This document shows positions 4,541 to 63,555 of a DNA stretch of 64,000 nucleotides, piece by piece. The position numbers and the translations under genes are program-made. The stretch's first letter is position 1. Each line of letters begins with the position of its first letter. The DNA comes from Eledone cirrhosa. Lineage: Eukaryota. The notes under the pieces were generated by a model. That model was not told the DNA's origin. It ran no database searches and worked only from the letters and a program-made list of their open reading frames with translations. The stretch lies in contig OZ024742.1 in assembly GCA_964016885.1 (NCBI GenBank), forward strand, positions 92,566,001 to 92,630,000, in the 5' to 3' direction.

Positions 4541-4630
4541 CTTGTCAGGATCTTGTTTTGATCGTTCTACAGTGTTGGAATCTTTTACCATAACCACATT
4601 CCCAACTTCAAAGCAGTCTTCATAGAATGA
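4541..4630 (-). CDS. DOCK7: DOCK7-like exon: SFYEDCFEVGNVVMVKDSNTVERSKQDPDK
   Basis: TTTTCAG acceptor, AAG|GTAAGT donor, 90 nt, phase 0-0; KDSN motif of DHR2. Confidence 0.93.
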
Positions 4631-4973: not shown

Positions 4974-5108
4974 TTCAAGTCTATGAGAAATTTCAGGTAA
5001 CTTTGTTATGGCTGGTTCTTTGTATATGAATTCTTCTCCGTCAAGGTCACCAAATTTGTGACCATAGAAGCCGACTCGGAAATAAGTTCCAAAAACTCGC
5101 TTTCCTTC
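4974..5108 (-). CDS. DOCK7: DOCK7-like exon: [45 protein letters not shown]
   Basis: CAG acceptor, GTATGT donor, 135 nt; hallmark [22 protein letters not shown]. Confidence 0.97.
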
Positions 5109-5630
5109 CTGAAAATAGCAATATATAATCATAGTAGTATCAGGAAACGTATACACATTCATTGAGTACTTTTCCTCCTGTTTATACATTAAAACTTGAT
5201 GGATCATCTGGCAATTTCAACAATGAACATTAAATTACTCAATCAGTTATGTATCTAACTCATTAAGTAACGCATAAGTAGCTGAGTGTTCCAGAGAGTA
5301 TTCCCTTAACATAATTCATAAATTGAATCAGCAAGACAATATATGACAAGGACATTTGAAGTAGGTACAATCCATTTGTCAGGCCTGCTCAATTTCACTA
5401 CCAATTCACTGTGTCAACTTGAAGTTATGGTAAAGATGCCATGCTGAACGATCAAATCTGAGTCTCATGATTGCAAAGCAAACTTAACCACTCAGTCATG
5501 CCCCTGGACAGCATTGGTGATGTAGAGAGTGGAGACCGGCATGCATGGGCAACTGCCAGCCTTCTGTAGACATGTGCCGCAGAAGGCAACTTTCTAGGTG
5601 CAAATCCCATCTCACCCCATATATATCTAT

Positions 5631-5673
<43 letters not shown>

Positions 5674-5799
5674 AACACACACACATATATGGAGAAATGC
5701 TTGGATTTTTATAAACAGACACAAATGAAATCTATCACATCATAGAAAGGAAATACATTTTTAACTGTTAATTTTATTCTCTCTCTATCTCTTCATTTA

Positions 5800-6270
5800 T
5801 CAGATTGGACTGGATTGCATCAGATTGGATAGATATTAATCTATCCAATCCAGTCCAATACAGTCTGATCAGATCTGACCCATTTTGATCCAATCCGGAC
5901 CATATTTTTCTGGTCAAAGCTGATCTGATTTGGCCCAATCTGGTACGAAGCAATCAAATCTAATCCAGTCTGATCCAATCCGGCCCAAAGCAATCTGATC
6001 CATCTTGATCTCAATCTGATCCAATCCAATCTGATCTGATCCTGTTTGATCTACTCCAGTTTGATCTGATCCAATCCAGTCTGATCTGATCCAATCCGGT
6101 CTGATCTGATCCAGTCCAGTCTGACCCAATCCAGTTTGATTTGATCCGGTCTGGCCCAATCTTGTTTGATTTAATCCAGTTTGAGCTAATCCAATCCAGT
6201 TTCATCCAATCCAGTTTGATATGATCTGAAACGATGTGGTCTGATCTGGTTTCACCAGATCTGGTCTGAT
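5800..6270. repeat. Degenerate pentameric satellite (GATCT/ATCCA/CCAGT units)
   Basis: Repeated TCTGATCCAATCCAG-like units. Confidence 0.9.
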
Positions 6271-7212
6271 ATATATATAAAAGACAAAGTGAGGTTTCAT
6301 GTTAAGGTCTTTATTGATTATACACAGTTACGACTGTTTCACAGATGAGTGACTCGGGATCTATGTAAGTGCTTCAACTCCAGCTTGATCTGATCATCAG
6401 ACTTGTTAATCAAGCAAAACCAACATATATACACTCTGCCATAGCACAGAGTGCTGATTTTATAGTCAAGCTGCCAGCATTGTCAATAAAAAGAAACACA
6501 GGCACGACATGACCTCCATCCCATCTACACTACTAGTTACAGGTTAGCTCATTAAAGCTCTTTCGTCCACATTCCATGACCTCTTCAATGACTATCAGTT
6601 CTCTTTTGTGCCTCTTGTGTGATGAAAAAACTTTGATGAACCAACAACCAGCAATAAAGATAAAGTGAAAATCATATGGTATGTATGCCTCTTTCCACTG
6701 GAAATACCGGCAACATTACCATGCCCAAGCCCAAACATAATATCAGTTTCAACACACGATTTCACATCAAGAACCTTGCAAAACAAATACATAAACATAT
6801 ATATATCTATCATCATCACCATTTAGCGTCCACTTTTCCATGATTGCATGGGTTAGACGTACCATGCTCCGACAGGGCTGTAATTTATATATATATACAC
6901 ACACATATATATACAACAATCGCCCTAGTGTTAATGCCACAGAGGAATGCACCCAATGCACTCAGCAAGTGGTTGCATTTCTGACATGGTGAAATGCACC
7001 ATTCACTCTGTAAAGTACTGATGCAATGTTAAAATGCACCCAGTACACATTGTAAAGTAGTTGGTATTAAGAAGAGCATCCAGCTGTAGAAACAGTGCAA
7101 GACCAATATGTATGAGCAGGGTATGGTCATCCAACCTGGCTGATCTCAGAACACGACATCCTGCCATCCTACGGCATCCTGGAAGATGATGATGATGATG
7201 TATATATATATC

Positions 7213-8423
7213 ATCATAATCATCGTTTAACGTCCATCTTCCATGCTTGCATGGGTTTGGACGGGAGTTTTCCCACTTGAGGCAAGAGTAGTTGTCTTGC
7301 TCGCATAGGACTGTCTGGCGGGTTTTCTACGGCTGGATGCCCTTCCTAACACCAACCACATTTACAGTGTGGAACTGGGAGGTTTTTACCGTGTTATCTA
7401 CACGGCCACATTAGAGCGTGGACTGTGTGTTTTTTTGTTGTGACACCTACACGACCTCATTTGTTTCGGACTGGATGTTGTGGTACCAACATAACTTTAC
7501 ATTGAAAGGGGTGGTGTGGATGGGGTGGGGGTAGTGGGACAGGGGGTGTATTTTTGTTAGAGGTGCCTACTGACTGTAGTAGGTTTCACTTTGTACTTAG
7601 GTAAGGCAGGTCTTCCGTATTACTGTGTAGCGCCAAAGATCTCAGTCCAGTGACATTGTCTTGGAGAGGTGTAAGTGTGTGAGGTCGGAATTTATCAAGT
7701 CATCCCAGGTTTTTCTGGGTCTGCCTACTCCGTGGCTACCATCTATTTTTATTGCCCTGCACTTTTTTATACAGCTGTCGTCTTTCATGCGCATCACGTG
7801 ACCGTACCAATGTAGTCTTCTCTTGAGTAAACAACATCTGATCCCTCTTATTTCTAATTTTTCCCTTAGTTCGTTTATGCTTTGCCATTCACGTATATTA
7901 CTATTACACATCCAGCGGAGCATGCAAGCTTCATTCCTCTCCAGTCTGCGTATATCCTCTGCACACAATGCCCAGGTCTCACTGCCATGTAACATTGCTG
8001 TTCGTATGCAGGCATCATACAGAGAACCCTTTAGCGGCTAATAGTGGTATAAGCTCTCTGAACTTTTTCCATCCAGTTCTGACTCTAGCTACTGTACTTT
8101 CAGAGCACCCTCCACCACTGCTGATTTTGTCACCCAAGTAACGGAAGGTGTCCACTATTTCTATAGAACCATCTGTGCAATGGAATGAGCTAGTATTCTG
8201 TGGGCACTTGCTGCTACTTATTGCACCAGAGCACTGGCCACATATAAAATCTATATACTGAGTTAGCTTACCTGTGATCCCACTACATCTTTTATGCACC
8301 AATACTTTGCATTTGGGACATAAAATGGAGTTTCTGCCTACTCCTTTCCTACACACTGAGCATGGCCATTTCCCGGATGGGATCGGTGCCCTATTTTCCT
8401 TCCTACAAACTAGAACTTTAGTC
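7213..8423 (-). mobile_element. 5'-truncated RTE LINE (RT C-terminus, Cys-rich region, 3' UTR, (ATG)n tail)
   Basis: ORFs 8015-8356 (CPKCK.LVHKRCSG, FRYLGDKIS) and 7642-7995 (MLHGSETW, RRLHWYGHVMRM, GRPRKTW); near-identical second copy at 22888-23522. Confidence 0.9.
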
Positions 8424-10140
8424 TTATATATATATATATATCATCATCATCATCATCACCACCGTTTTACGTCCATTCTTCCATGCTAGCATGGGTTAGA
8501 CGGGTTGTCTTGTTGTGGGCAGTGTCTGATCGGCTGACCATGCCTTGCTCATACAGGAACTGATTTTGGCTTGGTTTCTACAGCTGGATGCCCTTCCTAA
8601 CACCAACCTCATTTACAGTGAGTGCTGGGTGCTTTTTTCCGTGGCGCCTACACGTCCACTTTACAGTGTGGGCTGGGTGCTTTTTTGCCGTGGCACCTCC
8701 ACGACCACTTTGCAGTGGGAGGGTGTGGGGCATATTGTCTATATGCTTCAGCTTGTACCCATGGGTGCATTCCTCTGTGGTATTAACACTAGGGCGATTG
8801 TTGTATATATGTGTGTATATATATATATATAAATTACAGTCCTGTCGGAGCATTGTACGTCTAACCCATGCAAACAAATAGATAGAAAGAGACTATTAAG
8901 TCTATGTTCTTTAACATTCTCATTACCATATTTTTAATGAAAGACTGCCTATAATTTTCAAATAATTTTGAAAATAATGAAGAACTTGGAGGGATTTAGT
9001 ACTCATTGTTAAGCTGGTGTTTAATACATAACATAAATGTTCTTGACCCAAATTATGATGTAACATTTTAGATAAATATAAACAATTTAAAACAGTTTCA
9101 GATCATTTGGCAACAAAAACAAAACAAAGGAATCTGAATAATTTGGAGGGATTTAATAATATAACTAACTTTCTCATTATTAAGTTGGTATTTGGAGTAA
9201 AACATATCAAAGGTTCTTACATGGAAGTTATGATGGAAGGTTTTGAGAAAAGTATATATCCAAAATTAAATTAAGGTTGTCATGTCAGAGACATGCGCCA
9301 TATTCACTGCAGAATAAGCTCAAAGATTCCAATGAATAGTTCCGAGCATTTTATATCAACTAGAAATAGATTGACACATATATATATAAAATAAACACAT
9401 GAAACAATCTCAGGGAATAATTTGTAAAGTGTGTAAGCACACATAGCTAGGTAGGTAACCAATTAAAGTTTAACTAGAACTTCAAATATAATCATTTTAA
9501 AAGGTATCTATATTTGAAGTTCTAGTTAAACTTTAATTGGCCTACCTACCTAGCTATGTGTGCTTACACACTTTACAAATTATTCCGAGATTGTTTCATG
9601 TGTTTATTTTATATATATATATATGTCAATCTATTTCTAGTTGATATATATATATATATATACACACACATCATCATCATCATTTAACGTCCAATTTCCC
9701 TGCTAGCAAGTGTTGGACAGGTCTACACAGTACTGAAGCGGGGCCACTGGCATCCCAGACAGGCCGAGAAGGTTTGTATACTGCTTATGTATAGTCATTA
9801 TCGAGTTGTTGTGTCTTTGTCACAGCTGAAGGGTCCTCTGAGCCCTTTTTAGGTATGGTTTCTACAGTGAGGTAGAAATGTACCATGTGCATTTTCATGG
9901 CAACATTACAGAAGAGGTTGTTGGTCATAGACCATACAATAAATCACATCGATTCCACAATTATTTTGCAGTTGAGTTTCAGTACTATCCTACAATTATC
10001 ACCTCAACAATGAGGTACAAATGAAACCCATTTGTCACCCAAATGGACTGAAGCAAGTAGAATTATGAAGTAGAATTATGAAGTGTAAGAGAAACAAACA
10101 AAAGAAAGAAGAAAAACATTATCTGTTGAATGTATCTTAC

Positions 10141-10272
10141 CATTTTGGTGATGTTTGTGAAAGCTTCATGTAGTTTATTATGGATGTGTGCCAACCTTTT
10201 ATAATCTCGGTTTGCTTCATGTATTGGAATCAATATTCTGTAAACCTCATTTACAGCTTCATACATGCCACA
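10141..10272 (-). CDS. DOCK7: DOCK7-like exon: [44 protein letters not shown]
   Basis: TTTTACAG acceptor, ATG|GTAAGA donor, 132 nt, phase 0-0. Confidence 0.96.
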
Positions 10273-11510
10273 CTGTAAAATAAGAAAACAAATAGATAGA
10301 AAGAGACTATTAAGTCTATATTCTTTAACATTCTCAGTACCATATTTCTAATGAAAGACTGCCTATAAATTATTATTTTCAAATTAATTTGAAAATAATG
10401 AAGAACTTGGAGTGATTTAGTACTCATTATTAAGCTAGTGTTTAATACATAACATAAATGTTCTTGACCAAAATTATGATGTAACATTTTAGATAAATAT
10501 AAACAATTTAAAACAGTTTCAGATCGTTTGGCAACAAAAACATCCCCACCAAAAAAACAAAACAAAGGAATCTGAATAATTTGGAGGGATTTAATAATAT
10601 AACTAACTTTCTCATTATTAAGTTGGTATTTGGAGTAAAACATATCAAAGGTTCTTACATGGAAGTTATGATGGAAGGTTTTGAGAAAAGTATAAACAGT
10701 TTAAAACAAGCAGCTTTGTATCATAGAAGGCAAAAAAAAACAAAAAAAAAACAAGCATTCTTTTATTGAGAATAAAGTAGAAAAAAATCATAGATAAATA
10801 AATAAAAGATTGGAAATGCATGAAGCAGATTGGCTACTATAACGGTTTCATGCATGTATATTTCAGACACATAAGCCAGTTATGGAAGAACACACCGATC
10901 GTTTGTTTTTGTTTTGAACCATTTCTGCTACATATTTGAAAAAAGGTTAATAGCCCTGAAATATCATGTGGAGATATACTGGGTAAAACATTACTTTGTT
11001 TTGTTTTATTTGTCATCTTTTGCCCGTTATATATTTTTACTGCATTGAACTGACTTTTTGAAACTTATCTGTCTTTGATTCTTTTATTGGTTTCTGTGAT
11101 TGGATTATGTTGTTGCTGGTGTACTGTTTCCTAAGATTAATCAAACCAGTCATTGACAGGTACTTTCGTTTTAAGCCCAGAAGGATATAAGGCAAAGTAG
11201 GCCAACATTTCAACTCGTAATGAAATACCACAAGGTATTTTGTTTGACATTTTGCTGATTCTATCATTCATTAACCATCATGGTAAACAGATATATATTG
11301 AAGACAAATCAAATGCTATCACTTTTGATTTAATAAAACAATCAGTTGCATCGTACCAGTTAAACATATAAACTAACATGCTACGGTATCGGTCCATAAC
11401 ACTCTCTCATTATGTGACACCTTTGGCAAGGGTCTTCTAATATAGTCTTGGAATAAACAATATATTTTGAGTCAAACTTAGTAGATGGAAACTACAGAAT
11501 TCAAATGTAA

Positions 11511-11550
<40 letters not shown>

Positions 11551-11811
11551 AACCTATCCAAGCATGGGAAAATAGAAGTAAAATGATGATATATATTTGT
11601 GTGTACAAGTTTGTGTTTACATCTTTATCACATTATTTTCTGTTTTGTAACATAGCAGTTTGACAAATAAGATAAAAAATAAGTACCACACTTTAAAAGA
11701 ATAACAGGTACTAAACCTTAGATAGGTTGTGCTACAGAAAGGTTGCAGTTTAATAACTGAAACCAGTCACAGAGCATTAACAATTACAGTAACAAGAGGT
11801 GATATACTTAC

Positions 11812-11955
11812 CATTGAAAAGGAACCACATGCCTGTTCGAGAAGACCAATGAGACCACTTTCTGAGAAGTATTTGCCAGTACAAATGCCTTCCTCTTCAG
11901 GAGATACAACATCATCAGATACAGCACTTTCTTCAAGAACATTTGAAGAAATTTT
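11812..11955 (-). CDS. DOCK7: DOCK7-like exon: [48 protein letters not shown]
   Basis: TAG acceptor, GTAAGT donor, 144 nt; matches the DOCK7 [23 protein letters not shown] motif. Confidence 0.97.
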
Positions 11956-12200
11956 CTATGGAGATTAAAGAGAAAATAAAGATGTCACAAAAAGATTTAT
12001 AAAGTGCAATCATTTTAATTTGTGTGTATTTATGTATTTGAGTCGATATCTGTAGTCATGTTCTGTAAATTAGTGGTTTGAGAAATATGCACCAGATTGG
12101 CTCAAATGTTCAATTAACACCCTAGGTTAATTCATTGACTCATGAGAGTAGATATTAATCCCTTTGGAGACCCTTGGTCTACACCATTATTTTAACATCT

Positions 12201-12392
12201 GGGTGGTGGATTGGCAGTATAAGTAGAGGGTCGGACGCCATGCTTTTTCAGCATAGTTACGTCCCTTTAGGATCTGAGTTCAAATCCCGCCGAGGTTAAC
12301 TTTGCCTTTCATCCTTACGGGGTCGATAAAATAAAGTACCAGTAATGTACTGGATAATTGCTGGCCTTGTGCCAAATGTAGAAACAATTATT
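12201..12392 (+). mobile_element. Young tRNA-derived SINE (cephalopod type)
   Basis: A/B-box-like head (GGTGGATTGGCAG...GAGTTCAAATCCCGCC) and conserved body TTTGCCTTTCATCCTTACGGGGTCGATAAAATAAAGTACCAG; several near-identical copies in the window. Confidence 0.85.
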
Positions 12393-12760
12393 TTAACATC
12401 TGCTTCTCTTTTTAATGTTAACAAGAGTCTGCAATAAATCATCTTCCCATGCCTTTCAGTTTTCATTTACAAATAACAATATTCTCAGAAACAATGCTCA
12501 ATATTTAATAACAATGTGCATGAATGAAGAAGCACATATGAGCTGTGAGAAAAATTGGGTAAAACAGAAATCAGATGTAGCATGCAAGAGAGAAGATTCT
12601 GCTGGTACTGGCATGTTGTGCATATAGATACTGATCATTGGGTGAAATAAAGCCAACCTAGTTAGTAACTGCAGAGATGTTGCAATGTGGACCCACACTA
12701 TTGATTCAATATAGAAAATGATGATGTTGATGATGATGATGATAAACTGATGCTACTGAC

Positions 12761-12877
12761 CTGAAAGTCGACACAACCCACAGGTAAGTGAGGCCTGTCT
12801 TCTAACATATTGAGGTATTCTGCCACCAAACCGGCAGCATGGATGAGACAATGGGCAGCTTCAGCATTGTTCTTTCG
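12761..12877 (-). CDS. DOCK7: DOCK7-like exon: [39 protein letters not shown]
   Basis: Polypyrimidine tract with AAG acceptor, CAG|GTCAGT donor, 117 nt. Confidence 0.95.
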
Positions 12878-13911
12878 CTTCAGAAGAAAACAGAAAAAAA
12901 GAGTGGAATTAACAAAACAATCTTGTATAATCGATAGAACATAGAGAAGGAAAAGACTAAATGTTGTTTTCAAAATATCAGATTTACTCCTGACCATTAT
13001 AGCTTACATTCAACAACCAAGAAGATAAAAGACAAGGTAAAAAAAAAGGTAGTACATTGTCAGATTAGAGCAAGGAAGCTATGGTTTAAAAAAAAACAGA
13101 TTTAGTCGTTTAGTTTACACATTGAAATCCCAACCCATCCTATCTATTTTATAAGGTATGGGATTTCTAGTAATGTTCTTTTTTTTGTCATGTATAACGT
13201 TTTTTAATGCCTAAGGAAAATTAATTATCACAGGAATGTTACCACTTCAAATCAAATTTTGCAAGAGATAGATTAGCAGTTAGTGGGAGTTAGAGTAGGG
13301 GATTTGGAAAAATCTGAAAAATTAATGGGAGCTGGCGATTATTCAAGAACCTGAGACTATGTTCCAAACTAAAGTTTAATAATGAAAAAGTTACATTACT
13401 AAATCTGAAGAAAAACTTAATCCTTTTCAAAATTAATTAAAAATCTAAGGCAGTATCTTTTAATACTATTATGATAATGAAAAGTTAGAACTTATCAGGA
13501 TTAGCTCACTTCTCCCACAGAAGTTGCCAATAATAGATTACTTAAATATGTAAAAGCAATTAGTTGACCGACTTAGCATGTTTACATAATGGCAAAGTGA
13601 TTAGAGAATTGGGCTTAAAATAATAAGGTTGTAGGTTTGATTGCCAAATTGAGATGCATGATATGTTCCTTCTAAAACACTTCATTTGACATTGCTCAAG
13701 TTCACTTCATTTAAAAAGCAACAGCAACTGGAATTTGACCTTGAGATGGACAGTCATCCTGTCTCAGTTGCTAGATACCAATTAAACTAGGATAGGCTCT
13801 GGCTTGATGACCCTCTGGGTTCAAGAGAAAGAAAAGAAAACGTTGACAGACTAACAATAATATTCTTTAAACATAGGTCTGCTGGATCAAAACTAAAACT
13901 CAAAACCAATG

Positions 13912-14070
13912 TATGAGGGTTGGCTGAAATCTTGCATTAATTTCAATTCTTCTTATTGATTACTGTGTGTTGTTTCCTTCCAGGGACTATGTTGAAAAAT
14001 AAACCCCATTTGGTCATTCCATGAGAGTATCTTGGTAGGCCTATGATCTTTTCGGCCAATGAACTTAACA
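13912..14070. mobile_element. Mariner-like MITE fragment; inverted related copy at about 57840-57990
   Basis: TA(C/T)GAGGGTTGGCTGA terminus and shared TTTGGTCATTCCATGAGAGTATCTTGGT. Confidence 0.6.
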
Positions 14071-14146
14071 GACTGTCGTACTTCTTATCTGAGGTAAGGA
14101 GATATGCAGCTTTAAGACAAAGACAGGTAAAAATATGTGTATATAC

Positions 14147-14323
14147 CTCACTGTGTTTACATCCCATAGTTTGTAGCCAGGTGAGTCGAAGGTCGGGTGA
14201 TGTCTGATAGCCCTTTGCTATACGGTACATTAGATCTATTAACATCTCTGGGTCTTCATTAAATTCTTTCATTTTCACGGTGTCGGATAGAATCATGTGT
14301 AAATTGAATACCAAGTCACGCAC
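14147..14323 (-). CDS. DOCK7: DOCK7-like exon: [59 protein letters not shown]
   Basis: TAG acceptor, GAG|GTATAT donor, 177 nt; highly conserved DOCK7 sequence. Confidence 0.97.
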
Positions 14324-15121
14324 CTACAAAACATTTACAATATACATATTTATACATACATAAATATATATGGAAAAATGGACATTAAATGATGATGATG
14401 ATGATAATGAGCTAAGTGAAAAAATGAAAAATCAGCACCAGAAGACAACACATACAATATCAGTGTATTAATTTAATGCTTAAAAGAAACAAATGTATGT
14501 ATATATTTACACACACACATATATATATACATTCTTAATAGTAAAGACTACTATACTGTAAGCTATAGTAAAACCAACCAGTCTAAAGCAACCAGAAAGT
14601 ATTTGTCCGATGCCCTGATGATTCTGCCAATCAATTGCCCTACATGACAATAACAATAATAATGATGATTATAGTAATGATATATTTATCATTAACATGT
14701 AAAATTTATTTGATTAGATCTATGTGCCTTGAATCAGCTGAATCAGAGCTAACTAAGGATTACACTGCAACAACAACATCAAACAAAGAGAAATTAAGTA
14801 TAGCAGTTGCAACAAGTGTTTTAAGGCTATTTCCCCCTGCTATAGCAGGGGTTTGCCTTGTGGGGCCCAACAAAACACTTCATACTTGCCATGTGGTCTA
14901 TTCTGAAGCAATGTTCTATAGCCAGATACCTTTCCTGATGCTAACAATTTTAGTAGCCAAGAAAGGTATCCTGCTGTAAAACATTGCTTCAAAAGACACT
15001 TCATGATAAATATAAAGCCTTTCATAAGGCCTGCAAGGACAATTCCTGCTTTAGCTGGAAAAAAATGTCAGTTTCTGTCCTTGCAAAAAGTTAGAGGAGG
15101 TCAAAGATCAAGAAAACATAC

Positions 15122-15280
15122 CTGTGCAGGAAATGTGGTGTTAACTAACTCGACATCAGCTTCTGCATATGTCAAAATTGTCTTCAGTGATTTTCGTAAA
15201 TATTCTTCATTAAACTTTTGGTTTTGTCCTACTAATGAACTCAGTGACATTGTTACCTGCATCTTTACACGTGCAAAATT
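15122..15280 (-). CDS. DOCK7: DOCK7-like exon: [53 protein letters not shown]
   Basis: TTTCTAG acceptor, CAG|GTATGT donor, 159 nt. Confidence 0.97.
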
Positions 15281-16234
15281 CTAGAAACAAAAATGAGGAT
15301 GAGGTGATGGAAAAATAACATTAAGATGGACATGCAGGTTCACAAAGTTATTTTTTAAAGAGTAGACACAGTATGGCCAAATAGTTAAGAAGTTTCACAA
15401 TCATAAAGTCCTGTGTTCGATCTCCCTTGGTGACCTCTTGGGAGACATCTTGGGCAAGTGTCATTTACCATGACCTCAGGTCAACTCAAGCCATGTTAGT
15501 GAATTTATGGAGAGAGAAACTGTTTGGAAGACAGTCAAATGGACTGTACCTGTAATTCAAAGAGTCAGCCATGTCACACAGTGTCATGATGAATGTTCAG
15601 CCACTTTCATGCTAAATTCACATCTAGGCAGTTCTGTTGTTCAAAAACTGCAGAATTCATCATTGAAACAAAAGGAAATCCATTTCATTTCTTAAGCAAG
15701 TAGAATATAATATCTGTAAGTGTGTGGCATAGTGGTTTTGGAGTTGGTCACAATTTTAATTTTGTGGGTTCAACTCCTGGTCAAGGTGACACAGTGTGTC
15801 ATTGAGCATAATACTTTATTTGATTTTGTCTCCTCTGCTGAAAATGAGTACCTGTTTGAAGCTAACCTTCCAAAGGTAAATTTAATGTAGATATAACAAG
15901 TTTTGGAATTATGTAAACACTTCCTGTTATTCCTTTTGTATACAGAATGCACTTTGAAGATTATTGCATTCTCATCATATCTACATTAAATTTACTTGAA
16001 TCATAAAAAGCAATCCAAATATGGAATACATGAGCATAATGTGGTTCTCTGAGCAGTCTAGTCTCAGGCCATGATGCTCCGCCCAACCCACGCCAGCATG
16101 GAAAATGGATGCAAAATGATGATAATGATTACAGACATACATACACATACAATCACAGAAACATATACACATACAAAGAGATACATACACACACATGTTC
16201 AGAGGACAACACTAAAAGTAGATGTTTGACTTAC

Positions 16235-16387
16235 ATTGCCCATCTCAAAGTTCTGCTTCATGAGCAGATAGAGGGAGGCTGCTGCATGTGACCGTGTGTT
16301 GCTGATACAGGAACTACAGTGACGTAGTAGACGGAGGCAGAGGTCAGCACATTGTTCTGTCTCTTCTTGGAATAGAAGTTCAGGGAA
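16235..16387 (-). CDS. DOCK7: DOCK7-like exon: [51 protein letters not shown]
   Basis: TTCCAG acceptor, GTAAGT donor, 153 nt. Confidence 0.97.
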
Positions 16388-16414
16388 CTGGAAAACAACA
16401 AATGGGGATTCAAG

Positions 16415-16606
16415 AAATAACTGTTTCTACTTTAGGCACAAGGCCAGCAATTACCCAGTGCATTACTGGTACTTTATTTTATCGACCCCGTAAGGATGAA
16501 AGGCAAAGTCAACCTCGGCGGGATTTGAACTCAGATTGTAAAGGGACGTAACTATGCTGGAAAGCATGGCGTCCGACCCTCTACCGATACTGCCAATCCA
16601 CCGCCC
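16415..16606 (-). mobile_element. Young tRNA-derived SINE, same subfamily as 12201-12392, opposite orientation
   Basis: Reverse complement of the 12201 copy with few mismatches. Confidence 0.85.
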
Positions 16607-16735
16607 GTCAAGAAATAACGCCAGTATAAAGTACCATACTAAAATATTAACTAAAACCTTGGAAGGTGATACAGCTGCATGACTGAAACAAATAAAAAAT
16701 TTAAAAAAAAACCCACAAAAACCTGTGAAACTTAC

Positions 16736-16867
16736 CTTGCTGACTAGTGATCTTTGTGTTGCCAACATATGTTGTAATACTGATGTACTTTGATTTAAAC
16801 CAAGACTGTGCAACAAAACCCGCAACGCGTAACCCAGGGTAGGCATCTCCATTGATGACTGTGCAAT
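16736..16867 (-). CDS. DOCK7: DOCK7-like exon: IAQSSMEMPTLGYALRVLLHSLGLNQSTSVLQHMLATQRSLVSK
   Basis: TTTATAG acceptor, AAG|GTAAGT donor, 132 nt. Confidence 0.95.
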
Positions 16868-18414
16868 CTATAAATGAGAATACATACATAAATATATATA
16901 TATATATACATGCACACATAAGTAAAAGAAAACAAAGTTTCAAATTAACATTTTTATTCTTCGAATGTGACATGTTTCACATTATATATATATATATATA
17001 TATCATTAAAAAAAATATGTGGGAGAAATATAGGAAACAGAAAATGCAGAAGAGACAAGTATATAGACAATTTCTGCTCATCAGTTATCTTTCTGGGGAT
17101 CATTATAGTTTCAGATGTAATATAAGGCAGGACTATTCTACACCAGTGCATCAATAGAAATCACGGAATTATCCATGGATAGCTATTTGGAATGAAAAGA
17201 CAATAGGTATTGGACAAAAAAAAAAACACACACACAGAAGAAATAACTACATACCGATATGGTACATGAAAATTGTTACAATCAAAAGCAACACAAATAA
17301 GGCCTAGGTAAATGTAGTACAAATAAAGGAATGAATTAAAAATTAATACTAGTTCAAGCAATAGCCCTAAAACTAATATTAATAGGAAGGACATGGCAGA
17401 GATGACAAGCCAGGTAGGTGTCAAAGGCTTTGAAAGGTAGGGCAGTATTATAACATATACTGGCAAGTGTTTTACAGGTTACAAATATTATCTGATGACA
17501 GGCCTCGATATTTATATTAGAACTAACTGCCTTTATTAATATAATCAATGTATGGCTAACTGAACACGTTTTTTCTAAAAATTATTTCCAATCCTGCCTC
17601 TTTTCATTCTCTAACTTTCTACTATATCTTTTATTTCTCATTCTATCTTCTGTTGAAGGACTAGTGTCTGAAACATAAAAACTCTTTTCCTACTATATCA
17701 AGTGTTAAACTAATATATTTCTTCAGTGCACTGTATTGTTTCCATTTACTTTCTGCATATATATTTCTCCTATGTACTCACAGGCTCATTGGTATTGAAT
17801 ACTCATTCTTCCATCATTCATTATCAAACCTATATATCTCTAGAGTAACAAGACTCGAGCTCGGCCTTAATAAATCTATCTATTTATCTATCCATCCATC
17901 CATCTCTCTCTCTACACACATACATGTATATAAGATAGATAGGTATGTTATTGGTTGGCAAAATATATGTACTCAATGAATGTATCAGAATAAGTATATA
18001 TATCTTTTTTATTGACATTTTGAAAATTACCCAGGGATGTCTTCTGCATAAAGAAAAATTTAATACTAATATGAATTGAAATTACACTTGTGGTCATTAG
18101 CTTTAATGACAGTTGCTGTATGTTGATTACATTAACTCATAATATCCTGTAATGATTTAGTGGAAAATATCTTACAGTGGGTTTGTTAATTCGAATGTTT
18201 ATAGTATCTTTACTAGTGGACAAATCATTGTGAAAATTTGCATTAAACCAAATTAAAGACAATTTTTAATGTGGTGTAGTCATAGTGCTGTTTGGTATTT
18301 TTCAAAAATGTCTTGCTAATGTGGTTCCAGGAGGTATAGGACATTAATTGTTAAGGTATGGTTGCAAATAGGATTATGAAAATATAGACAAGGATCAGGT
18401 GAAAGGTAACAAAC

Positions 18415-18517
18415 CTGTACGATGAGTTCCAATGTATCAATTGCTACCATGCTGACTTCAGCAGCAAGATTGCCTTCTACATGGGCATCGACTTCCACAT
18501 CACGACTGAACTTTTGA
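18415..18517 (-). CDS. DOCK7: DOCK7-like exon: (S)QKFSRDVEVDAHVEGNLAAEVSMVAIDTLELIVQ
   Basis: CCCAG acceptor, CAG|GTTTGT donor, 103 nt, phase 2 to 0; GNLA.E motif. Confidence 0.93.
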
Positions 18518-19602
18518 CTGGGTAGACAGATGAAATGAGAGAAAACAGATAAAGTATTTCACATTAGTTCTTAAAATACAACCACAATTTAGCAGAAAAT
18601 GTCTAAAAACAGGTTTGTTAATTCAGATGTTTATAATATCTATACTTGTGGACACATTATTGTGAACATTTATAGTATTAGACTAAAGACTTTATTATAT
18701 AATGTGGTGCAGTCAATTATGCTAAAAATGATGTTCTGTGAACATGGTGGTTAATTTATTACATAATAAAGTTAACTGCTGTTTTATATTTTACAAGAAT
18801 GTTTTGCTGCTGTGTTTTCATGTGGTACTGGATTTTAATAGTTAATAATACTAAGCACCCTGCATCACCACAAACATATTGAAGCCATTTTCTCTGCTGA
18901 AGTAGGAATTAACTTTGCAGGCTCCATGATGGTCTTTTATACTCATCATGAAGTCCTTTCTGAAGCAATGTTTTACAACTGGATGTCCTTTCTGGCATAA
19001 ACCCTTTCAGTTGTCTATTGACACATAGAGACAGAATGTGCCTATTCTAAATTGGATAAATCCTACATTATAACATTATACAGACACTCCACCCATGTCC
19101 ACTTTGAAAAAAATGGTATAAGTGTTTTAAAGTGAACAAGGGTGCGTCTATTCTATGGAAAAGTGAACAAACAATCTAAGTTAAAACTCCACTGTGGGTG
19201 ACTAACTCTTGTCCATCTGAGACACAAAAAAGTAGCTGTTAAGTATAAGCATTGATTCAATTAACCTCAGAGTTCACTGCCATTCAAGCAGACTTCTCAA
19301 TTGATTAAGTGTACCAGCTGTGTATCACCAGGAAAAGGCAAGGTGCCGAATTTGCAGAGCTATTAAGAATATTGAATACAATGCCTCACAGTATTTGTTC
19401 TGGCCTTCTGAATTCTGAGTTCAAATTTCACCAAGTACATATTTATCTTTTATTTCTCCGAAGTCAATACTGAGAAAACAGTAACTCCGATTGATTACTG
19501 ACTTGATGTGTGACGACCCATCGAACCCATGCCAGCATGAAAAAAAACAGATGTTAAATGATGATGATGTGACTTAAGGTTACAATGGGGTACAGTACAA
19601 AC

Positions 19603-19699
19603 CTTTCATAGTGTTCATGGGGCTGTTTCCATTGAAATTGGTCCTTCCGCCAGCGAAGACGACTTCCATCGGAATTCCCCGATGGAGGTGTACGCTCAC
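19603..19699 (-). CDS. DOCK7: DOCK7-like exon: (G)ERTPPSGNSDGSRLRWRKDQFQWKQPHEHYE
   Basis: TTTTTCAG acceptor, AG|GTTTGT donor, 97 nt, phase 1 to 2; LRWRKD motif. Confidence 0.93.
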
Positions 19700-20344: not shown

Positions 20345-20492
20345 CTGAGTTACTGAAACTTGTTTGGCGTCGCCTTAGCATCATTTCAGTCCTAGCATTT
20401 GAATTTCCGAGAATTGCTTCTTCAAGACGTGTCTTCATGTCGACACTTCGCCTGAAAGTCTGCTGGGAATACTGGCTCATTGCTTTCTTACC
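20345..20492 (-). CDS. DOCK7: DOCK7-like exon: GKKAMSQYSQQTFRRSVDMKTRLEEAILGNSNARTEMMLRRRQTSFSNS
   Basis: CAG acceptor, CAG|GTAATT donor, 148 nt, phase 0 to 1; DM...LEEAILG motif. Confidence 0.94.
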
Positions 20493-36300: not shown

Positions 36301-36585
36301 TTTAATAATAATAATAATCTATCAGAGTTAGAATGGAAATCAGACAACCATCCAACCAACCAGTAACAGAAAAAATAAAATAAAAACAAAAATCAAACTA
36401 AAAATCACTACACCAGTGGTAAACTACCATGTTAAAGGTTACCTAGGTTACAGTAGTAGTGGTAGTAGCAGTAGTGGCAGCAATGGTGGTGGTGGTGGTG
36501 GTGGCTGATACTAAAGGGAGTCAGTACATGATAGGACATAAGTTTGAAAAACAAATACAAATACACACAAAGCAGTTCATAGTAC

Positions 36586-36828
36586 CTGCCCATATGTCTC
36601 TTCTTTGCCGATACCACGCCCCAGGAAGGTCCCCGTACCCCGAAACAGATCTTGGGACTTCCTCTGAATGCCTTCCCAGATTTGCTCATGAAACGATTGA
36701 GATTTGATCATGCCATTGCCTTTGTAAGTGGATCCCCGTGGTGTTGGGCTATCCTGCCAGTCTTCCAGGGTTTCCTCGGAGCCAGAGAACTGCGACAACA
36801 TGTCACAGTTCATTAGAACCCATTTTGC
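36586..36828 (-). CDS. Candidate alternative cassette exon (81 aa): AKWVLMNCDMLSQFSGSEETLEDWQDSPTPRGSTYKGNGMIKSQSFHEQIWEGIQRKSQDLFRGTGTFLGRGIGKEETYGQ
   Basis: About 60-nt pyrimidine tract ending TTCTAG, CAG|GTACTA donor, 243 nt, phase 0-0, open frame, non-repetitive GC-rich island. Confidence 0.75.
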
Positions 36829-37129
36829 CTAGAATACAACAGGGAGGAGATGAAGAAGAAAAAATAAGAAAGAAGAGAGAGAAAGAGACTGGGATAATGA
36901 TATGACGTGTAACCACCAGCAGGTTGCAGCCAAGGACTCAGTAGAAATGAACAGTCATGTTGAGATTTGCAATATTGCAATGCACCAACTGCATGTTTTC
37001 AGGAGCAACAACACCTTGCACATCAAGTCCTACATATATGTCAATATCATCATCATTTAATGTCTATTTTCCACAGTGGCATGGGTCAGACAGGTTGTCC
37101 TGTTGTGAGACAAGTCAGATCACACAGAA

Positions 37130-48702: not shown

Positions 48703-48714
48703 CTCATTGGGAGT
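48703..48714 (-). CDS. Candidate 12-nt microexon (TPNE)
   Basis: CATTCCATCTTTACAG|ACTCCCAATGAG|GTAAGA: consensus splice sites, phase 0-0. Confidence 0.6.
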
Positions 48715-56912: not shown

Positions 56913-57089
56913 CTTGTATTCAAAATTAGAAACTACAAAATAGATGATCTCCACAATACGACTCAGGCGTGAAAGTGGCAGATCGGACCACCAGCTTTTC
57001 AAAACAGCATAGTCTGCATTCTTAAGTACCCAGACAAAACAGATTAGGAGGTTGTGAGAAGCATCAGCATTCAGCATACTTTTTCTGGT
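56913..57089 (-). CDS. DOCK7: DOCK7-like exon: TRKSMLNADASHNLLICFVWVLKNADYAVLKSWWSDLPLSRLSRIVEIIYFVVSNFEYK
   Basis: TTTCAG acceptor, AAG|GTAAAT donor, 177 nt; LLIC..WVLKNAD and FEYK motifs. Confidence 0.96.
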
Positions 57090-58464: not shown

Positions 58465-58774
58465 TTTTACTTCAGTTTCATGGACATTGTAACTCATATT
58501 GGACACTCTTTCACAAACACTTGACCCTGCTATTGCCATAGCAACATGCTGGCTGATTCGGTCACCTTCTTCATCCAGGTAGGAGTTGCGGGAACGGCTG
58601 TTCATGTTGGGGTCATACAGCTGCGGTAGGGCATCAATAACAATGCCGATTAAGGGCAGATAGAGGGCAGCTAGGCGAGCCTTTATTTCTGGGTTTGCAT
58701 AGCGTGTGTCCAGATCATGGTTGTAGAGGAGGTTACGTACAACATTGATGGCCTTGTAATGGATTGTCGTATTG
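58465..58774 (-). CDS. DOCK7: DOCK7-like exon: [25 protein letters not shown]...[21 protein letters not shown]...[12 protein letters not shown]...HETEVK
   Basis: TTGCAG acceptor, AAA|GTAAGT donor, 310 nt, phase 2 to 0. Confidence 0.95.
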
Positions 58775-58912
58775 CTGCAATACATTATAATACAAAGCAG
58801 AAGCCAGAATAAACAAATAGCTAAATGAATACATAAATAAACCAGAAATCTTTATTGTGAGGCACGTTTTCAAATTTTGGATTTAAACATGTGGCTTCCA
58901 TTTAAAAGACTA

Positions 58913-58914
<2 letters not shown>

Positions 58915-59003
<89 letters not shown>

Positions 59004-59066
59004 AGAAAGAGCGAGCGAGAGCGAGAGAGAGAAAGAGCGAGAGCGAGAAAGAGAGAGAGCGCGCAT

Positions 59067-59110
<44 letters not shown>
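58915..59110. repeat. (GA)n + (TG)n microsatellite
   Basis: Direct inspection. Confidence 0.97.
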
Positions 59111-59113
<3 letters not shown>

Positions 59114-60781
59114 AGAGAGATTAACTGCTACATTGAATGGATTAAGCAACTATTTAAAACAAAGACCCTTGATTGATTCTAAAATACTCACACTCTTGAA
59201 ATTTAAGATTTAAACATGTGGTCCTATTCTAAAAAAGCATAGGAGGGTGTTGCTAAATCGAACAGATTAAGCAACTGTTTAGATGAGATGCCTGCAGTCA
59301 TTTCTGCAATACCCACCCTCCTTAAATTTAGGATATGTAACAAGCTCTACATGACCTTTAATTCAAAATATTATTAGTTTCAAGTATTCAGCACATATGA
59401 CACCAGATTTAGACAAAATTTTTAATTATCAGATTTATAATTTTTCATTTTAAAATTGGATTATTTAAAAATTGCATTAAAATTTTATTATACAATACTG
59501 GAAATCAATTTTTTTTTTCCTTATGTAGATGCAAAATTTTACTGTCTGAAGCTGAGATATTCATTAGGCCAGAGTTTATAACTGGTGTTAAATAACTGAG
59601 AATACAGAACACCAACCCATTGCAGAGTTATCCTTATGTTGCTGCTGGTACTCATTTCTATCAGCTGTATGGAGAGGAGTCACATGAGATAAAGTATCAT
59701 GCTCAAGGACATAACATACCCCACAGTCAAGAAATTGAACTTACAATCATGAGTCCAACACTTTAACCACTAGGCCACAAACTTTCACATTTCACCCCAA
59801 CCCCACCCTATCTACTTCGGAATCACCAATAAAAGTTCACTTGTGTGTCTGTGGTTTGTGAAAACAAGAAACACAATACAAGATAAATCTAATTTAGAAC
59901 CCCTTTTCTATTAAGCCTTTCTTTACCATATTTCTAATGAAAGATACTGCCTATAATTTTCAAATCACTTTGAAAATATTAAAGAATTTGGAAGGATTTA
60001 TTATTAAGCTGGTGTTTGGAGCAGAAGTCAATAAAGGGTCTAACAGAATTATGATAGGTTTTAGATGAATATAAACAATTTACTATTGTAGAACCATAAG
60101 CATTTTCAGGCAGTTAGGTATCAAAAGGTTTAAAGGGAGCAAATTAAAGAGTTTTATAAAAAAAAAGAAAAGTGGTTCAAATAATTGACATGACCACAGG
60201 CAGAGCTGTGTGGTTAAAGAGTTAACTTTGTAACCACATGGTTTCGGGTTCATTCCCAGTGTAGCGAGTGTCTACTACTACAGCCTTGGATTGACCAATA
60301 CCTTCTGAGTGAAATTTAGCAGATGAAAACTGCAGAAGCTCATCTCATAAAGGATATGATCCTCAAGAAACAACCTCACAAAGGAGATGACATAGGACTG
60401 AGCTGGCTGGTGATATGCCATTATATAAACACTAAAGGTAAATGTAGTGAGAGACAAGAGGCTAAAGTGAATGGCAATGAAACAGAGAGATAATATAGGG
60501 TTTGAGGAAACTCTACAGTCTGGACAAACATCTAACAACTCTCGTGCTGATACTATGATAAAATGCACTCAATACACCCTGTTTATGGCCTTTAACAAAA
60601 AAAGAAAAAAAGAGATGGATAAAATAAGTATCAGATTTGAGAAAAAAAAAAACAGAACTACCGGGGTTAATATGATTAACTAAATCCCTTTAAGACAGTA
60701 CCACAGTCTAATAATTGAAACTAGTAAAAGAATAAAAAGATTGTTCTCAAACATTGACAGGTAGTCATAAATAATACTCAC

Positions 60782-61089
60782 TTTGTTTCTAGGGCCGTGG
60801 CTAAATCAGAGAGGACTAAGCCAGCAAGGAAATGCTGCTGCCGAAACTCAGATGTCAGATCAAAGAAAATGCCCTTGTCAGTAAGAGTGTTAGTTGAGGC
60901 ATAAGACATCTGAGAGTTGGTACTAGTGACACTAGGTGATGGACTGCATGGAGCTGATGGAGTAAGTGGTGTCCCAAATGGCAGATTTAATGGGAAATAA
61001 TGCTCATGACTGCAGATGATGTGCAGTAAATCCAGACGCAGCCTCATCAGAATTGTTGCATCCCCTTGGCATAAGATTTGGCCAGAAAT
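60782..61089 (-). CDS. DOCK7: DOCK7-like exon: ISGQILCQGDATILMRLRLDLLHIICSHEHYFPLNLPF...SPSPSVTS...EFRQQHFLAGLVLSDLATALET
   Basis: TTTCAG acceptor, GTGAGT donor, 308 nt, phase 0 to 2; IICSHEHY..LNLP and FRQQH motifs. Confidence 0.96.
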
Positions 61090-62099
61090 CTGAAAATAAA
61101 ATTCCATAAGAATTAATTAAAAAAAAAAAAATGAAACTTTGATACTTTGTGCTTTACATAAGCCATTAGATTAGCTAAAATTATATACACATGAAGATGA
61201 TGAAGGAACGTTATGAGTAAAGGCAGGCTGTGCAGTAAAGGACTCAGCCAACCCATGCAAGCATGGAAAAGTGGACATAATTGAAAATGGTGAGGAATAA
61301 GCTTAAACCAGTAAATTTAAATTGTTCTGAGTATAGCTTAGAGATGGTGGGCTGCTCTGCTTGACTGATTTGCCCTATATATGCTACATAAAGATAAAGT
61401 ACATTGACATTCACATGTATCAATGGACTGACAAGGACAACAAGCATTTTAAGGCCATCTTCCCTGTTAAAACAGGGATTAGTCAGACTCACAATATGAT
61501 GGATTTAATAAATAATTACACCTACTTCCCTCAAAATTATTATCTAGATTTAAAAAAGGAAAAATGAAAAAATCAATTTACATAAGATGAAGAGTCTTTT
61601 TTCTTTAACTTGGCAAAATTGTTAGAGCAAAGGACAAATTCCCTTGTGGTATTTGTTCTGGTTTTCAGTACTCTGAGTTCAAATTCTGCTGAAATCGATT
61701 TTGCCTTTCATCATTTTGAGGTCAATAAAATAAAGGATCAGTCCAGGGTGGTGGATTAGCAGAATTGTTAGAATGTCAGACAAGATGCCTTGTGGTATTT
61801 GTTCTGAATGTTTGCATTCAGAATTCAAATTTTGCTGTAGCATATTTGAGTAGTAGACTCAGCCATGCAGTTTAACACCAACACATGGTTGTTGGGTGAA
61901 TTTAACAGTCTACTCTGATTTAAGAATACCCCCCCCCCTCCCACCATCTATGAAAGCTCTGAAAAGGGTTGTGGGTGCTACCCTTTCCTCCCTGACTAAA
62001 AAAGTAAAAAAAAAAGGAAATAAAAATAAAAATAACGTCTCCCATGCATCGACAGAAAGTAATAACTTTTCTAAAAATATTTCAACTATGGGGTCATTT

Positions 62100-62610
62100 C
62101 TTTTTAGGTTTTGCATATCCTCTAAATTCAGTGCCCATGTTGAAGTACCATGCAGCATTTTCACTATGTATGCAGGCATAACTACACATATCCATTGCTT
62201 ATAGAGAGAATCCCTTCATCGTCAACAAAAGTCGTAGCTCCCTAAACTTTTTTCACGCTAAGCACTGACAGTCTGGACAAGTATCCACTGAGCAACCTAG
62301 TATTGTAATGAGGTAATTCTGGCGCCACAATAAAAAGCATCTGGTCCACCCTGTAAGATGGTAATGGTGCCATGCTAAAAAGCATCCAGTTCACCTTGTA
62401 AGGTGGTTATATTGGTACCATGAGAAAAGCACCCAACCCACTTTGTAAAGTGGTAATGTTAGTGCCATGATAAAAAGCACTCAGTCCTCCCTATAAAATG
62501 GTAGTGTTGGTACCACAGTGAAAAGCATCCAGTCCACCTTTTAAAGTGGTAGTGTTGGTGCCATGAGAAAAGCACCCAATTCACCCTGTAAAGTGGTAGC
62601 ACCAGAGAGA
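62100..62610. mobile_element. RTE remnant (MLHGTSTWAL, minus strand) plus tandem ~45-bp SINE/LINE-UTR units
   Basis: ORF 61910-62179 contains a degenerate MLHGSETW motif; repeated GTGCCATGAGAAAAGCACCCA...TAAAGTGGT. Confidence 0.55.
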
Positions 62611-62879
62611 CAATAAAATTCAGATATTGAATTTTGTGACAAACTCTGAAATGCAATATTACAGTCAGATTGATTACTACCAATGGTTTCAACCCCAAAG
62701 GTGCCTATGTTGGTTTAGTCACACACTCTGCCGACTATGAGGTGGACTCATTCACAATGCAGTCGTGCCATAGCCCCTCATAGATGGCATAAATTGTGAG
62801 GCAGATGGTTGAAAACTTGGATTGACACAATAAAATCGGATCTTTGGCTAATATCTGGTTCTTGAAAAAATGGTCTCAG

Positions 62880-63340
62880 CCACTGGAATCATGATTAGTT
62901 GTGCATCATCTATACTGGATGTCTGTGATTGCAGTATATGGGCATCTTCTGTTTATGATGCCATCAATGCACTTGTTGGAACTGGCATATATGGTGTCCA
63001 CCATTGAAATCGTGAATAACTTACAATATCTAAATCAGATGTATGTGACTGCTGTGTCTGAGTGACATCTGTTTGTGATGCTTTGTCAATGCACTGTTTG
63101 GAGCTGGTTTATATGGAGCCTGCCATTGGAATGATGACTGGTCGACAATATCAGTGTTGTAGGTCTGTGATCACTGTACAAGGGCATCCTCTCTTCATGA
63201 TGCTGTGGATGCACTGGCTAGAGCCAATATAAATGGCATCCACTGTTGGAATCATGAGTGGCTGACAATATATGTATTGGTTGTCTGTGATCACTGTGAG
63301 GGGTGGCTTCTTTTCACGGTGTTGTAGATGCACTGACACA
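62880..63340. repeat. Degenerate tandem repeat, unit about 120 bp, 3-4 copies
   Basis: Recurrent TTGGAATCATGA...ACAATAT...GTCTGTGA...GATGC...ATGCACT. Confidence 0.7.
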
Positions 63341-63441
63341 AGTGCAATTACAAATAAGTTATACTGGTAAATGTTAGAGGAAAACCCCCAAAAGAAATAA
63401 TGTGACAATGTAGAGGTGAGAAAAATAAATGAGATACTCAC

Positions 63442-63555
63442 AGAACGGCAATAGTCATTGATCAAAGAGAATACCACTCCTCGATCCATCAGAGACAGCA
63501 GATCAAACAGGAAAAAGGCTAAACTTGAATTTAATGAACGAATGAGACCTTGGTC
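63442..63555 (-). CDS. DOCK7: DOCK7-like exon: DQGLIRSLNSSLAFFLFDLLSLMDRGVVFSLINDYCRS; upstream exons lie beyond the right edge
   Basis: TTTAG acceptor, GTGAGT donor, 114 nt; LN.SLAFFL.DLLS.MDRG motif. Confidence 0.96.

What the first reader, a model, noticed from the sequence alone, without database searches (positions are those of the whole stretch)
36586..36828. 81-aa exon with no counterpart in the vertebrate DOCK7 sequence I recall
Seen: very strong pyrimidine tract, symmetric phase 0, complex open reading frame with SPTP, RGST, KSQSF and RKSQ motifs, and no resemblance to the local repeat families. Inference: the core of a lineage-specific regulatory insert. The in-frame Met codons could also start an N-terminally truncated, DHR2-containing isoform if an internal promoter exists.
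Basis: partly seen in the sequence, partly recalled or inferred. Interest (0 to 1): 0.75.

Follow-up and report, generated by a model that had tools for sequence, protein, structure and literature searches.

The report
Ancient optional exon in mollusc DOCK7
A gene that switches on cell-shape signals carries an extra 81-amino-acid piece that chitons, clams and snails also have and that their gene models show both included and left out; it likely adds a docking surface for a partner protein, and no searched paper describes it.

Summary
The exon is real (minus strand, 36586-36828, AG/GT, phase 0-0) and lies in the genome's single DOCK6/7/8-type gene, exactly between two residues that are adjacent in human DOCK6. 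Spliced contigs of three related organisms cover it edge to edge and join it to its neighbours; 11 of 12 listed differences are synonymous. It is not a narrow-lineage novelty: homologous 75-129 aa inserts sit at the same junction in gastropods, bivalves and a chiton, and all 14 species with more than one model held have both insert and skip forms. Sixteen of 81 positions are invariant in 19 genera, chiefly SxETLxxW and WEGIQRKSxD, the latter in a predicted amphipathic helix within a disordered loop. A second, 24-aa exon (26306-26377) follows it. Best reading: an ancient splicing switch that likely adds a partner-binding module. Partner, tissue and presence outside molluscs are unknown.

The parts
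36586..36828 (-). Exon A: 243-nt, phase 0-0 cassette exon, 81 aa, inserted in the ARM region of the DOCK6/7/8-type GEF
36640..36693 (-). Codons 46-63: predicted amphipathic helix holding the near-invariant WEGIQRKSxD block
36757..36780 (-). Codons 17-24: conserved acidic Trp block SxETLxxW (S17, T20, W24 invariant in 19 genera)
36829..36886 (-). Acceptor with long pyrimidine tract (35 of 40) and 58-nt AG-free zone
36580..36585 (-). Weak donor (CAG|gtact); the same donor sequence follows the homologous exon in a bivalve-like contig, L002
26306..26377 (-). Exon B: 72-nt, phase 0-0, 24-aa Pro/Ser/Thr-rich exon spliced behind exon A; weakest donor of 15; no match in 80 long mollusc proteins
56913..57089 (-). 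Upstream exon ending ...FEYK (matches DOCK6 chain 1250-1304)
20345..20492 (-). Downstream exon starting GKK... (matches DOCK6 chain 1305-1349)
48703..48714 (-). Untested candidate 12-nt microexon (4 aa, strong donor) between the upstream exon and exon A
   Evidence: sequence pattern only
2016..19699 (-). Further exons of the host gene: C-terminal ARM repeats and DHR-2 (19603-19699, 18415-18517, 16736-16867, 16235-16387, 15122-15280, about 14087-14323, 12761-12877, 11812-11955, 10141-10272, about 4974-5111, 4541-4630, about 2496-2621, about 2016-2159)
58465..63546 (-). Upstream ARM-region exons (about 63436-63546, 60782-61089, 58465-58774); the gene continues beyond the window to at least G000:C3:92664268

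Best explanation
This is a conserved molluscan cassette exon of the single DOCK6/7/8-type Rac/Cdc42 exchange factor, and its inclusion likely adds a partner-binding module, a predicted amphipathic helix plus an acidic tryptophan motif on a predicted disordered tether, to the armadillo region without touching the catalytic domain. Shown: exon structure, splicing in three related organisms, purifying selection, homology at the same junction in chiton, bivalves and gastropods, and insert and skip models in 14 species. Predicted: the insert is disordered except for helix 46-63 and lengthens a flexible excursion from the solenoid. Inferred: the two invariant blocks fold on binding a partner (scaffold, motor adaptor or kinase), basic-Ser sites beside and in the helix (K42-S43, K57-S58) may tune this by phosphorylation, and the weak donor lets cell types choose the form, so that the long form is placed or activated differently. 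The partner and the tissue are unknown. The exon part is about 0.95 likely; the mechanism about 0.55.
For: Splicing: contigs of runs X1, X8, X9 (organisms A, B, C) cover 36586-36830 or most of it and continue into the upstream exon (X8, X9) and exon B (X1, X8); one X1 contig runs A-B-GKK-next two exons without gaps. Selection: 11 of 12 listed differences synonymous; one in-frame 3-nt insertion in X9 (read from the loose end); no frameshift rows (table 4). Depth of conservation: 18 other mollusc genera, 40-57% identity, 16 of 81 positions invariant; WEGIQRKSxD mean pair identity 0.91 against 0.71 for the whole protein and 0.59 for the whole insert, while spacers vary from 22 to 74 aa between the two Trp. 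Alternative use: of 31 named species, 14 have both forms, 9 only with, 8 only without; all 14 with more than one protein have both. Structure: AlphaFold2 gives pLDDT 25-29 over most of the insert and about 78 for the helix in an 879-aa snail fragment, and helix 46-63 at 70-79 for exon A alone; hydrophobic moment above shuffles at p<0.05 in 18 of 19, with I50, I54, S58, L61 on one face. Exons A and B have the two weakest donors of 15. Precedent: a nearby disordered ARM loop (1185-1242, Ser1194) tunes DOCK6 oligomers and activity (PMC13503879, Results read).
Against: No partner is identified and no function is tested. The insert matches no Pfam family, no solved structure and no Atlas cluster. 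The RNA evidence for exon A comes from relatives at 94-96% identity, from contigs, and the runs are only guessed to be RNA. Skip forms are automated gene models, not read counts seen here. The RxKSx[S/T]LP site (17 of 19 genera) and LxRxxS site (15 of 19) are lost in this animal and in the chiton, so the phosphorylation layer is not universal. The 18-aa helix as a whole is only at the 66th percentile of windows in this well-conserved protein. Both structure models are of low overall confidence (mean pLDDT 58-59). Lower nucleotide divergence than neighbouring exons was significant in 1 of 3 runs.
Confidence: 0.58

Rival explanations
1. The insert acts in cis: its helix packs on the protein's own armadillo or DHR-2 surface, or the 80-130 extra residues hinder the closed tetramer, and so shift auto-inhibition.
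For: DOCK6 is auto-inhibited through ARM-ARM contacts and a nearby disordered loop shifts the dimer-tetramer balance (PMC13503879, Results and Discussion read). The insert's LxKSxxLxxxLxExI pattern loosely echoes the downstream native helix.
Against: The helix is as confident in the isolated exon as in the long fragment, so the models need no docking to explain it. The echo scores 1.4% probability and is not above other windows of the protein. The known ARM-ARM contact (DOCK6 918-924) is about 380 residues upstream in sequence; its distance in space could not be seen.
Confidence: 0.22
2. The insert is mainly a cluster of kinase sites and 14-3-3-type sites that adds phospho-control; the helix is secondary.
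For: [RK]KS and KSxS[LIF] in 19 of 19 genera, an S/T-P in 18 of 19, RxKSx[S/T]L[P/A] in 17 of 19, LxRxxS in 15 of 19. Kinase and 14-3-3 consensus rules are recalled, not from a call.
Against: Invariant residues are largely hydrophobic or Gly (W3, W24, W51, G53, I54, G64, L69) and form one helix face; the best 14-3-3-like site is lost in this animal; SPTP, RGST and KSQSF are private to the window.
Confidence: 0.12
3. An internal promoter makes a short transcript that starts at or before this exon and encodes a truncated, de-repressed ARM-DHR-2 protein.
For: The X1 contig begins exactly at AG plus the exon's first base, the pattern expected if two different sequences precede the exon. N-terminal deletion activates DOCK6 1.8-fold (PMC13503879).
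Against: Met6, Met10, Met40 kept in 2, 1, 2 of 19 genera; first ATG is out of frame in the best context; no named protein held starts in the insert, and the one short model starts 59 aa upstream; the X1 pattern is equally met by unspliced intron or by a small upstream exon ending in AG, such as the candidate at 48703-48714.
Confidence: 0.06
4. Chance open frame or exonised repeat with no function.
For: Weak donor; repeats lie within 300 bases downstream.
Against: Single copy, synonymous bias, spliced contigs, homologues in 18 genera at the same junction.
Confidence: 0.01

Closest known systems
Annotated mollusc 'dedicator of cytokinesis protein 7(-like)' isoforms, e.g. Aplysia XP_005089591.1 (with) and XP_035825101.1 (without), Liolophura XP_064604400.1 and XP_064604401.1, Ruditapes XP_060603802.1 and XP_060603816.1
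   Same: Homologous insert at the same FEY[KR]|GKK junction, same invariant blocks, both forms modelled.
   Different: Automated models only; no description found in the searched literature. The window's copy has lost the RxKSx[S/T]LP and LxRxxS sites and is followed by an extra 24-aa exon not found in 80 long mollusc proteins.
Human DOCK6 (PDB 9VM2-9VM8; PMC13503879)
   Same: Flanking exons align to chain residues 1250-1304 and 1305-1349; same ARM-then-DHR-2 layout; a nearby disordered ARM loop carries a regulatory phosphosite.
   Different: No insert at this junction; three vertebrate paralogues (recalled) against one gene here.
Regulated alternative exons of vertebrate DOCK7 (ESRP2-repressed exon 23, PMC6788855; a neural microexon, PMC12626424) and the DHR-2 microexons of sponge/DOCK3/DOCK4 (10.64898/2026.09.05.749416); passages read
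   Same: DOCK exchange factors tuned by tissue-specific cassette exons.
   Different: Not shown to be homologous or at this site; their positions were not compared here. The mollusc exon is larger and carries a conserved helix.
Kinesin light-chain W-acidic cargo motifs (SKIP, calsyntenin; PMC5450233, PMC6214655, passages read)
   Same: Two invariant Trp in acidic context, 22-74 aa apart, in a disordered region.
   Different: Leu at -3 not -2, no acid at +1 for the first Trp in any of 19 genera; second Trp lies in a predicted helix.

Membership tests
DOCK-C (DOCK6/7/8) exchange factors: host gene | DHR-2 catalytic domain | tested here: met
   PF06920 above cut-off in 3 window exons; DOCK6 match E=5e-17.
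DOCK-C (DOCK6/7/8) exchange factors: host gene | N-terminal DOCK_C-D_N and DHR-1 C2 domains upstream on the same gene | tested here: met
   Chiton protein residues 167-932 match collinear exons upstream on G000:C3; mollusc orthologues carry PF11878 and PF14429. Indirect: those exons were not translated and scanned themselves.
DOCK-C (DOCK6/7/8) exchange factors: host gene | Closer to DOCK6/7/8 than to DOCK9/10/11 or DOCK1-5 | tested here: met
   Window exons hit only DOCK6 among solved chains; the snail orthologue's DHR-2 is 58-59% identical to DOCK7, 50% to DOCK8, 30-36% to DOCK9/10.
DOCK7 proper | One-to-one orthology with vertebrate DOCK7 | tested here: inconclusive
   Only one DOCK-C locus found (a floor); no tree with vertebrate sequences was built. 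Likely co-orthologue of DOCK6/7/8.
Conserved alternative cassette exon | Canonical AG/GT ends, length a multiple of 3, symmetric phase | tested here: met
Conserved alternative cassette exon | Included in spliced RNA | tested here: met
   Contigs of 3 related organisms join it to neighbouring exons; not shown for the window's own species.
Conserved alternative cassette exon | Skipped form exists | tested here: met
   14 of 14 species with more than one model held have both forms; automated models. In the close relatives it is inferred from where contigs break.
Conserved alternative cassette exon | Protein-level purifying selection | tested here: met
Conserved alternative cassette exon | Tissue- or stage-regulated inclusion | not testable with these tools
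   Runs are contigs without tissue labels.
Kinesin light-chain W-acidic motif | Trp flanked by Asp/Glu, often Leu/Met at -2 (PMC5450233) | tested here: not met
   First Trp: acid at -1 in 19 of 19, at +1 in 0 of 19, Leu/Met at -2 in 0 of 19; second Trp: Leu/Ile at -1, Glu at +1.
14-3-3-type phospho-site (consensus recalled) | Basic residue upstream, pS/T, Pro at +2 | tested here: not met
   RxKSx[S/T]L[P/A] absent from the window's exon and the chiton, present in the other 17 of 19 genera.
Transposon-derived exon | Similarity to a repeat family | tested here: not met
   Single match in the genome (that search skips very common words), none in the window.
Internal-promoter truncated isoform | Conserved in-frame start codon and transcript starts upstream of the exon | tested here: inconclusive
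   Start codons not conserved; transcript starts cannot be read from contigs.

The most novel reading that the evidence does not exclude
One intron of the mollusc DOCK-C gene is a hot-spot where a Cambrian-age, tissue-switched binding module of an undescribed motif class (SxETLxxW plus WEGIQRKSxD helix) has been kept together with its skip form, and where lineages stacked further exons on it (a 24-aa exon and perhaps a 4-aa microexon here, a 13-aa exon in a scallop), giving a combinatorial, possibly neural, code for Rac/Cdc42 activation.
Probability: 0.3. Interest if true: 0.62.

Novelty: new variant of a known kind. Interest (0 to 1): 0.42.

Why it matters
Little is known of how the long armadillo region of DOCK6/7/8 proteins couples them to partners; the first full-length structure points to its loops as control points. 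A cassette whose two forms persist from chitons to snails, clams and this animal, with a ten-residue near-invariant core, marks a precise site and a ready-made on/off pair for finding a partner and testing the oligomer model, in Aplysia or Biomphalaria for instance. It is not a new kind of system: alternative exons that add disordered binding segments to signalling proteins are common, and the isoforms already stand in automated annotation.

Tried and rejected
Complex prediction of the Ruditapes insert against the skip form's residues 1160-2065: no answer (score 0.01, alignments not used, controls not folded); no evidence either way. Two word-index protein searches with single exons found nothing, being limited to proteins up to 2000 aa. 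No listed holder run is on record as RNA. Run X13, which has no differences on the downstream exon and shows spliced joints, holds all sampled words of exon A by the index but had no contig laid on it; its 6,953-nt contig seems to cover exon B (same depth figure at 26348) and may be a skip form, but a hole proves nothing, so this is not counted. Contig depths were not used to estimate inclusion. Origin by duplication of the downstream exon: hhalign probability 1.4%, score within the range of 82 control windows: rejected for now. Second or mutually exclusive copy of exon A in the window: none. RBFOX-type TGCATG: at +26 behind the exon in L002, none within 3 kb behind the window's exon. Kinesin W-acidic motif: not met. 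Hits P0010 and P0015 are unrelated proteins by their sequences and were dropped, leaving 12 of 14. ESM Atlas: no usable hit for the snail insert. Pfam and PDB: nothing significant for the insert. Metagenome scan: 1 locus of 122 candidate stretches. Outside molluscs: no named hit, but the region search scored only 7,990 candidates and returned no cephalopod protein either, so absence elsewhere is not shown; the 11 unnamed fragments are nearest to mollusc inserts, the only ones they were compared with. Earlier scan notes: none. Literature: nine searches listed no paper on this insert; most were seen as listings only. The DOCK6 supplementary figure on disordered regions is a picture PDF and could not be read; one supplement of PMC9699675 (file 2) was not searched; bioRxiv supplements are closed. 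These may bear on the position in the structure and on tissue inclusion.

Full report
Observation. The coordinates hold a minus-strand exon: 243 nt, open in frame 0 only, tag| at the 5' end and CAG|gtact at the 3' end. Its pyrimidine tract is the richest of 14 exons compared (35 of 40); its donor is the second weakest of 15. It is single-copy by protein and DNA search of the 3.0-Gb own genome and unlike the rest of the window.

Host gene. Exons throughout the window encode the armadillo region and DHR-2 of a DOCK-C exchange factor; upstream exons continue on the same contig, and only one other, more distant DOCK locus was seen (a floor). The gene is therefore best called the single DOCK6/7/8 co-orthologue. 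The exons at 56913-57089 and 20345-20492 align to residues 1250-1304 and 1305-1349 of human DOCK6, so whatever lies between them is an insert relative to DOCK6.

Expression. Contigs from runs of three related organisms were laid on the exon. X1 and X8 cover 36586-36830 and X9 36613-36830 plus a loose end that is the rest of the exon with one extra codon. Beyond the edges the contigs do not follow the intron: their loose ends match the upstream exon (56915-56941) and a stretch at 26348-26377. That stretch is a second exon, B (26306-26377, 24 aa, phase 0-0). One 2,679-nt X1 contig runs A, B, the GKK exon and the next two exons back to back. The runs are only guessed to be RNA, but joins across introns of 6-20 kb at GT-AG ends show spliced transcripts. 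The break points of the X8 contig (300 nt) and the X9 contig over B (131 nt) fit branch points at both ends of A and of B; unspliced intron would give some of the same patterns, so this is inference. Exon A was not shown in RNA of the window's own species.

Selection. Of 12 listed differences, 11 are third-position synonymous and one changes Thr34 to Ala (p=4e-7). Not all differences are listed in that table, and six are shared among runs but counted once.

Relatives. A full-library search gave 14 hits, 12 of them true, one being a gastropod DOCK7-like protein with the insert at the same junction. A region search with it returned 22 proteins, 21 named and all molluscan, and cluster look-ups added isoforms. 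Inserts of 75-129 aa beginning (A/G/S)(K/R)W occur in heterobranch, caenogastropod, vetigastropod and neomphaline snails, in heteroconch, unionid and pteriomorph bivalves and in the chiton Liolophura (group names recalled). Of 31 named species, 14 have both forms, 9 only the insert form, 8 only the skip form; the last 17 are each represented by one protein. Chitons and the other groups parted in the Cambrian (recalled), so the exon and likely its alternative use are older than 500 million years. Presence outside molluscs is open.

Anatomy. In 19 genera, 16 of 81 positions are invariant: W3, S17, T20, W24, K36, K42, S43, W51-I54, K57, S58, D60, G64, L69. WEGIQRKSxD has mean pair identity 0.91 against 0.71 for the protein, while the spacer between the two Trp blocks ranges from 22 to 74 residues. 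SPTP, RGST and KSQSF are private to the window; RKS is invariant. A RxKSx[S/T]LP site in 17 genera and an LxRxxS site in 15 are lost here. AlphaFold2 on an 879-aa snail fragment puts most of the insert at pLDDT 25-29, with one confident helix over the invariant block, and leaves the following 100 native residues low too; exon A alone gives the same helix. The helix is amphipathic in 18 of 19 genera. Both models are weak overall.

Mechanism. Short invariant hydrophobic blocks on variable-length disordered spacers, in an exon that can be left out without harm to the fold, are what a fold-on-binding module looks like (established knowledge, not tested here). The catalytic domain lies some 300 residues downstream and is unchanged. 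I therefore favour a splicing switch that adds a partner site, with phospho-tuning as a second layer. In DOCK6, armadillo contacts close the protein into inactive tetramers and a disordered loop ending about 55 residues before this junction shifts that balance (PMC13503879; abstract, Results and Discussion read), so action in cis is the main rival. The truncated-isoform idea fails on start-codon conservation and context and on the models held; the one hint for it, the X1 contig that starts at the acceptor, has other explanations, among them a candidate 12-nt exon at 48703-48714.

Known and new. The isoforms stand in automated annotation. Nine literature searches listed no description of the insert (listings only, apart from eight papers: one read in sections, seven in passages: PMC12626424, PMC6788855, PMC6214655, PMC5450233, PMC10530600, PMC9699675, 10.64898/2026.09.05.749416). 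Regulated exons in DOCK genes are known from vertebrates and flies. Verdict: real, ancient, undescribed in the searched literature, of a familiar kind; interest 0.42.

Noticed in passing
window 26306-26377 (-): Second insert exon (24 aa) with a PxxPxR-like stretch (SH3-ligand pattern recalled); spliced in organisms A, B, C; no match in 80 long mollusc proteins, so probably younger than exon A.
   Followed up: partly
window 48703-48714 (-): Only microexon-like candidate between the upstream exon and exon A in a strict scan: 12 nt, in frame, strong donor, ends in AG, single-copy surroundings. Would explain why the X1 contig starts at AG plus exon A. No RNA test.
   Followed up: partly
P0031, P0016/P0039, P0023 vs P0072 (junction at window 56913/20492): Other additions at the same junction in other molluscs: a 13-aa alternative exon in Argopecten X2, two extra residues before the insert in Aplysia X1/X3, a 2-aa donor shift in Haliotis.
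   Followed up: no
window 36729: The only non-synonymous difference (Thr34 to Ala, run X9) is A to G on the mRNA strand; could be RNA editing or a species difference; needs DNA of that organism.
   Followed up: no
L002:1655-1925: Bivalve-like contig with the homologous exon has the same CAG|GTACT donor as the window and a TGCATG at +26.
   Followed up: partly
window 35647-36312 and 32370-33540: Tandem copies of a 200-232-bp repeat just downstream of exon A, and a 1.17-kb AT microsatellite.
   Followed up: no
window 3-1316 (-), 2863-3456 (+), 7645-8037 (-), 23259-23603 (-): Open frames that look like fragments of LINE reverse-transcriptase elements and a Tc1/mariner-type transposase inside introns (labels recalled, not tested).
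   Followed up: no
P0020, P0021 (equivalent of window 20345-20492): In Babylonia and Littorina the start of the downstream exon is diverged and 2-3 residues longer than in other molluscs.
   Followed up: no
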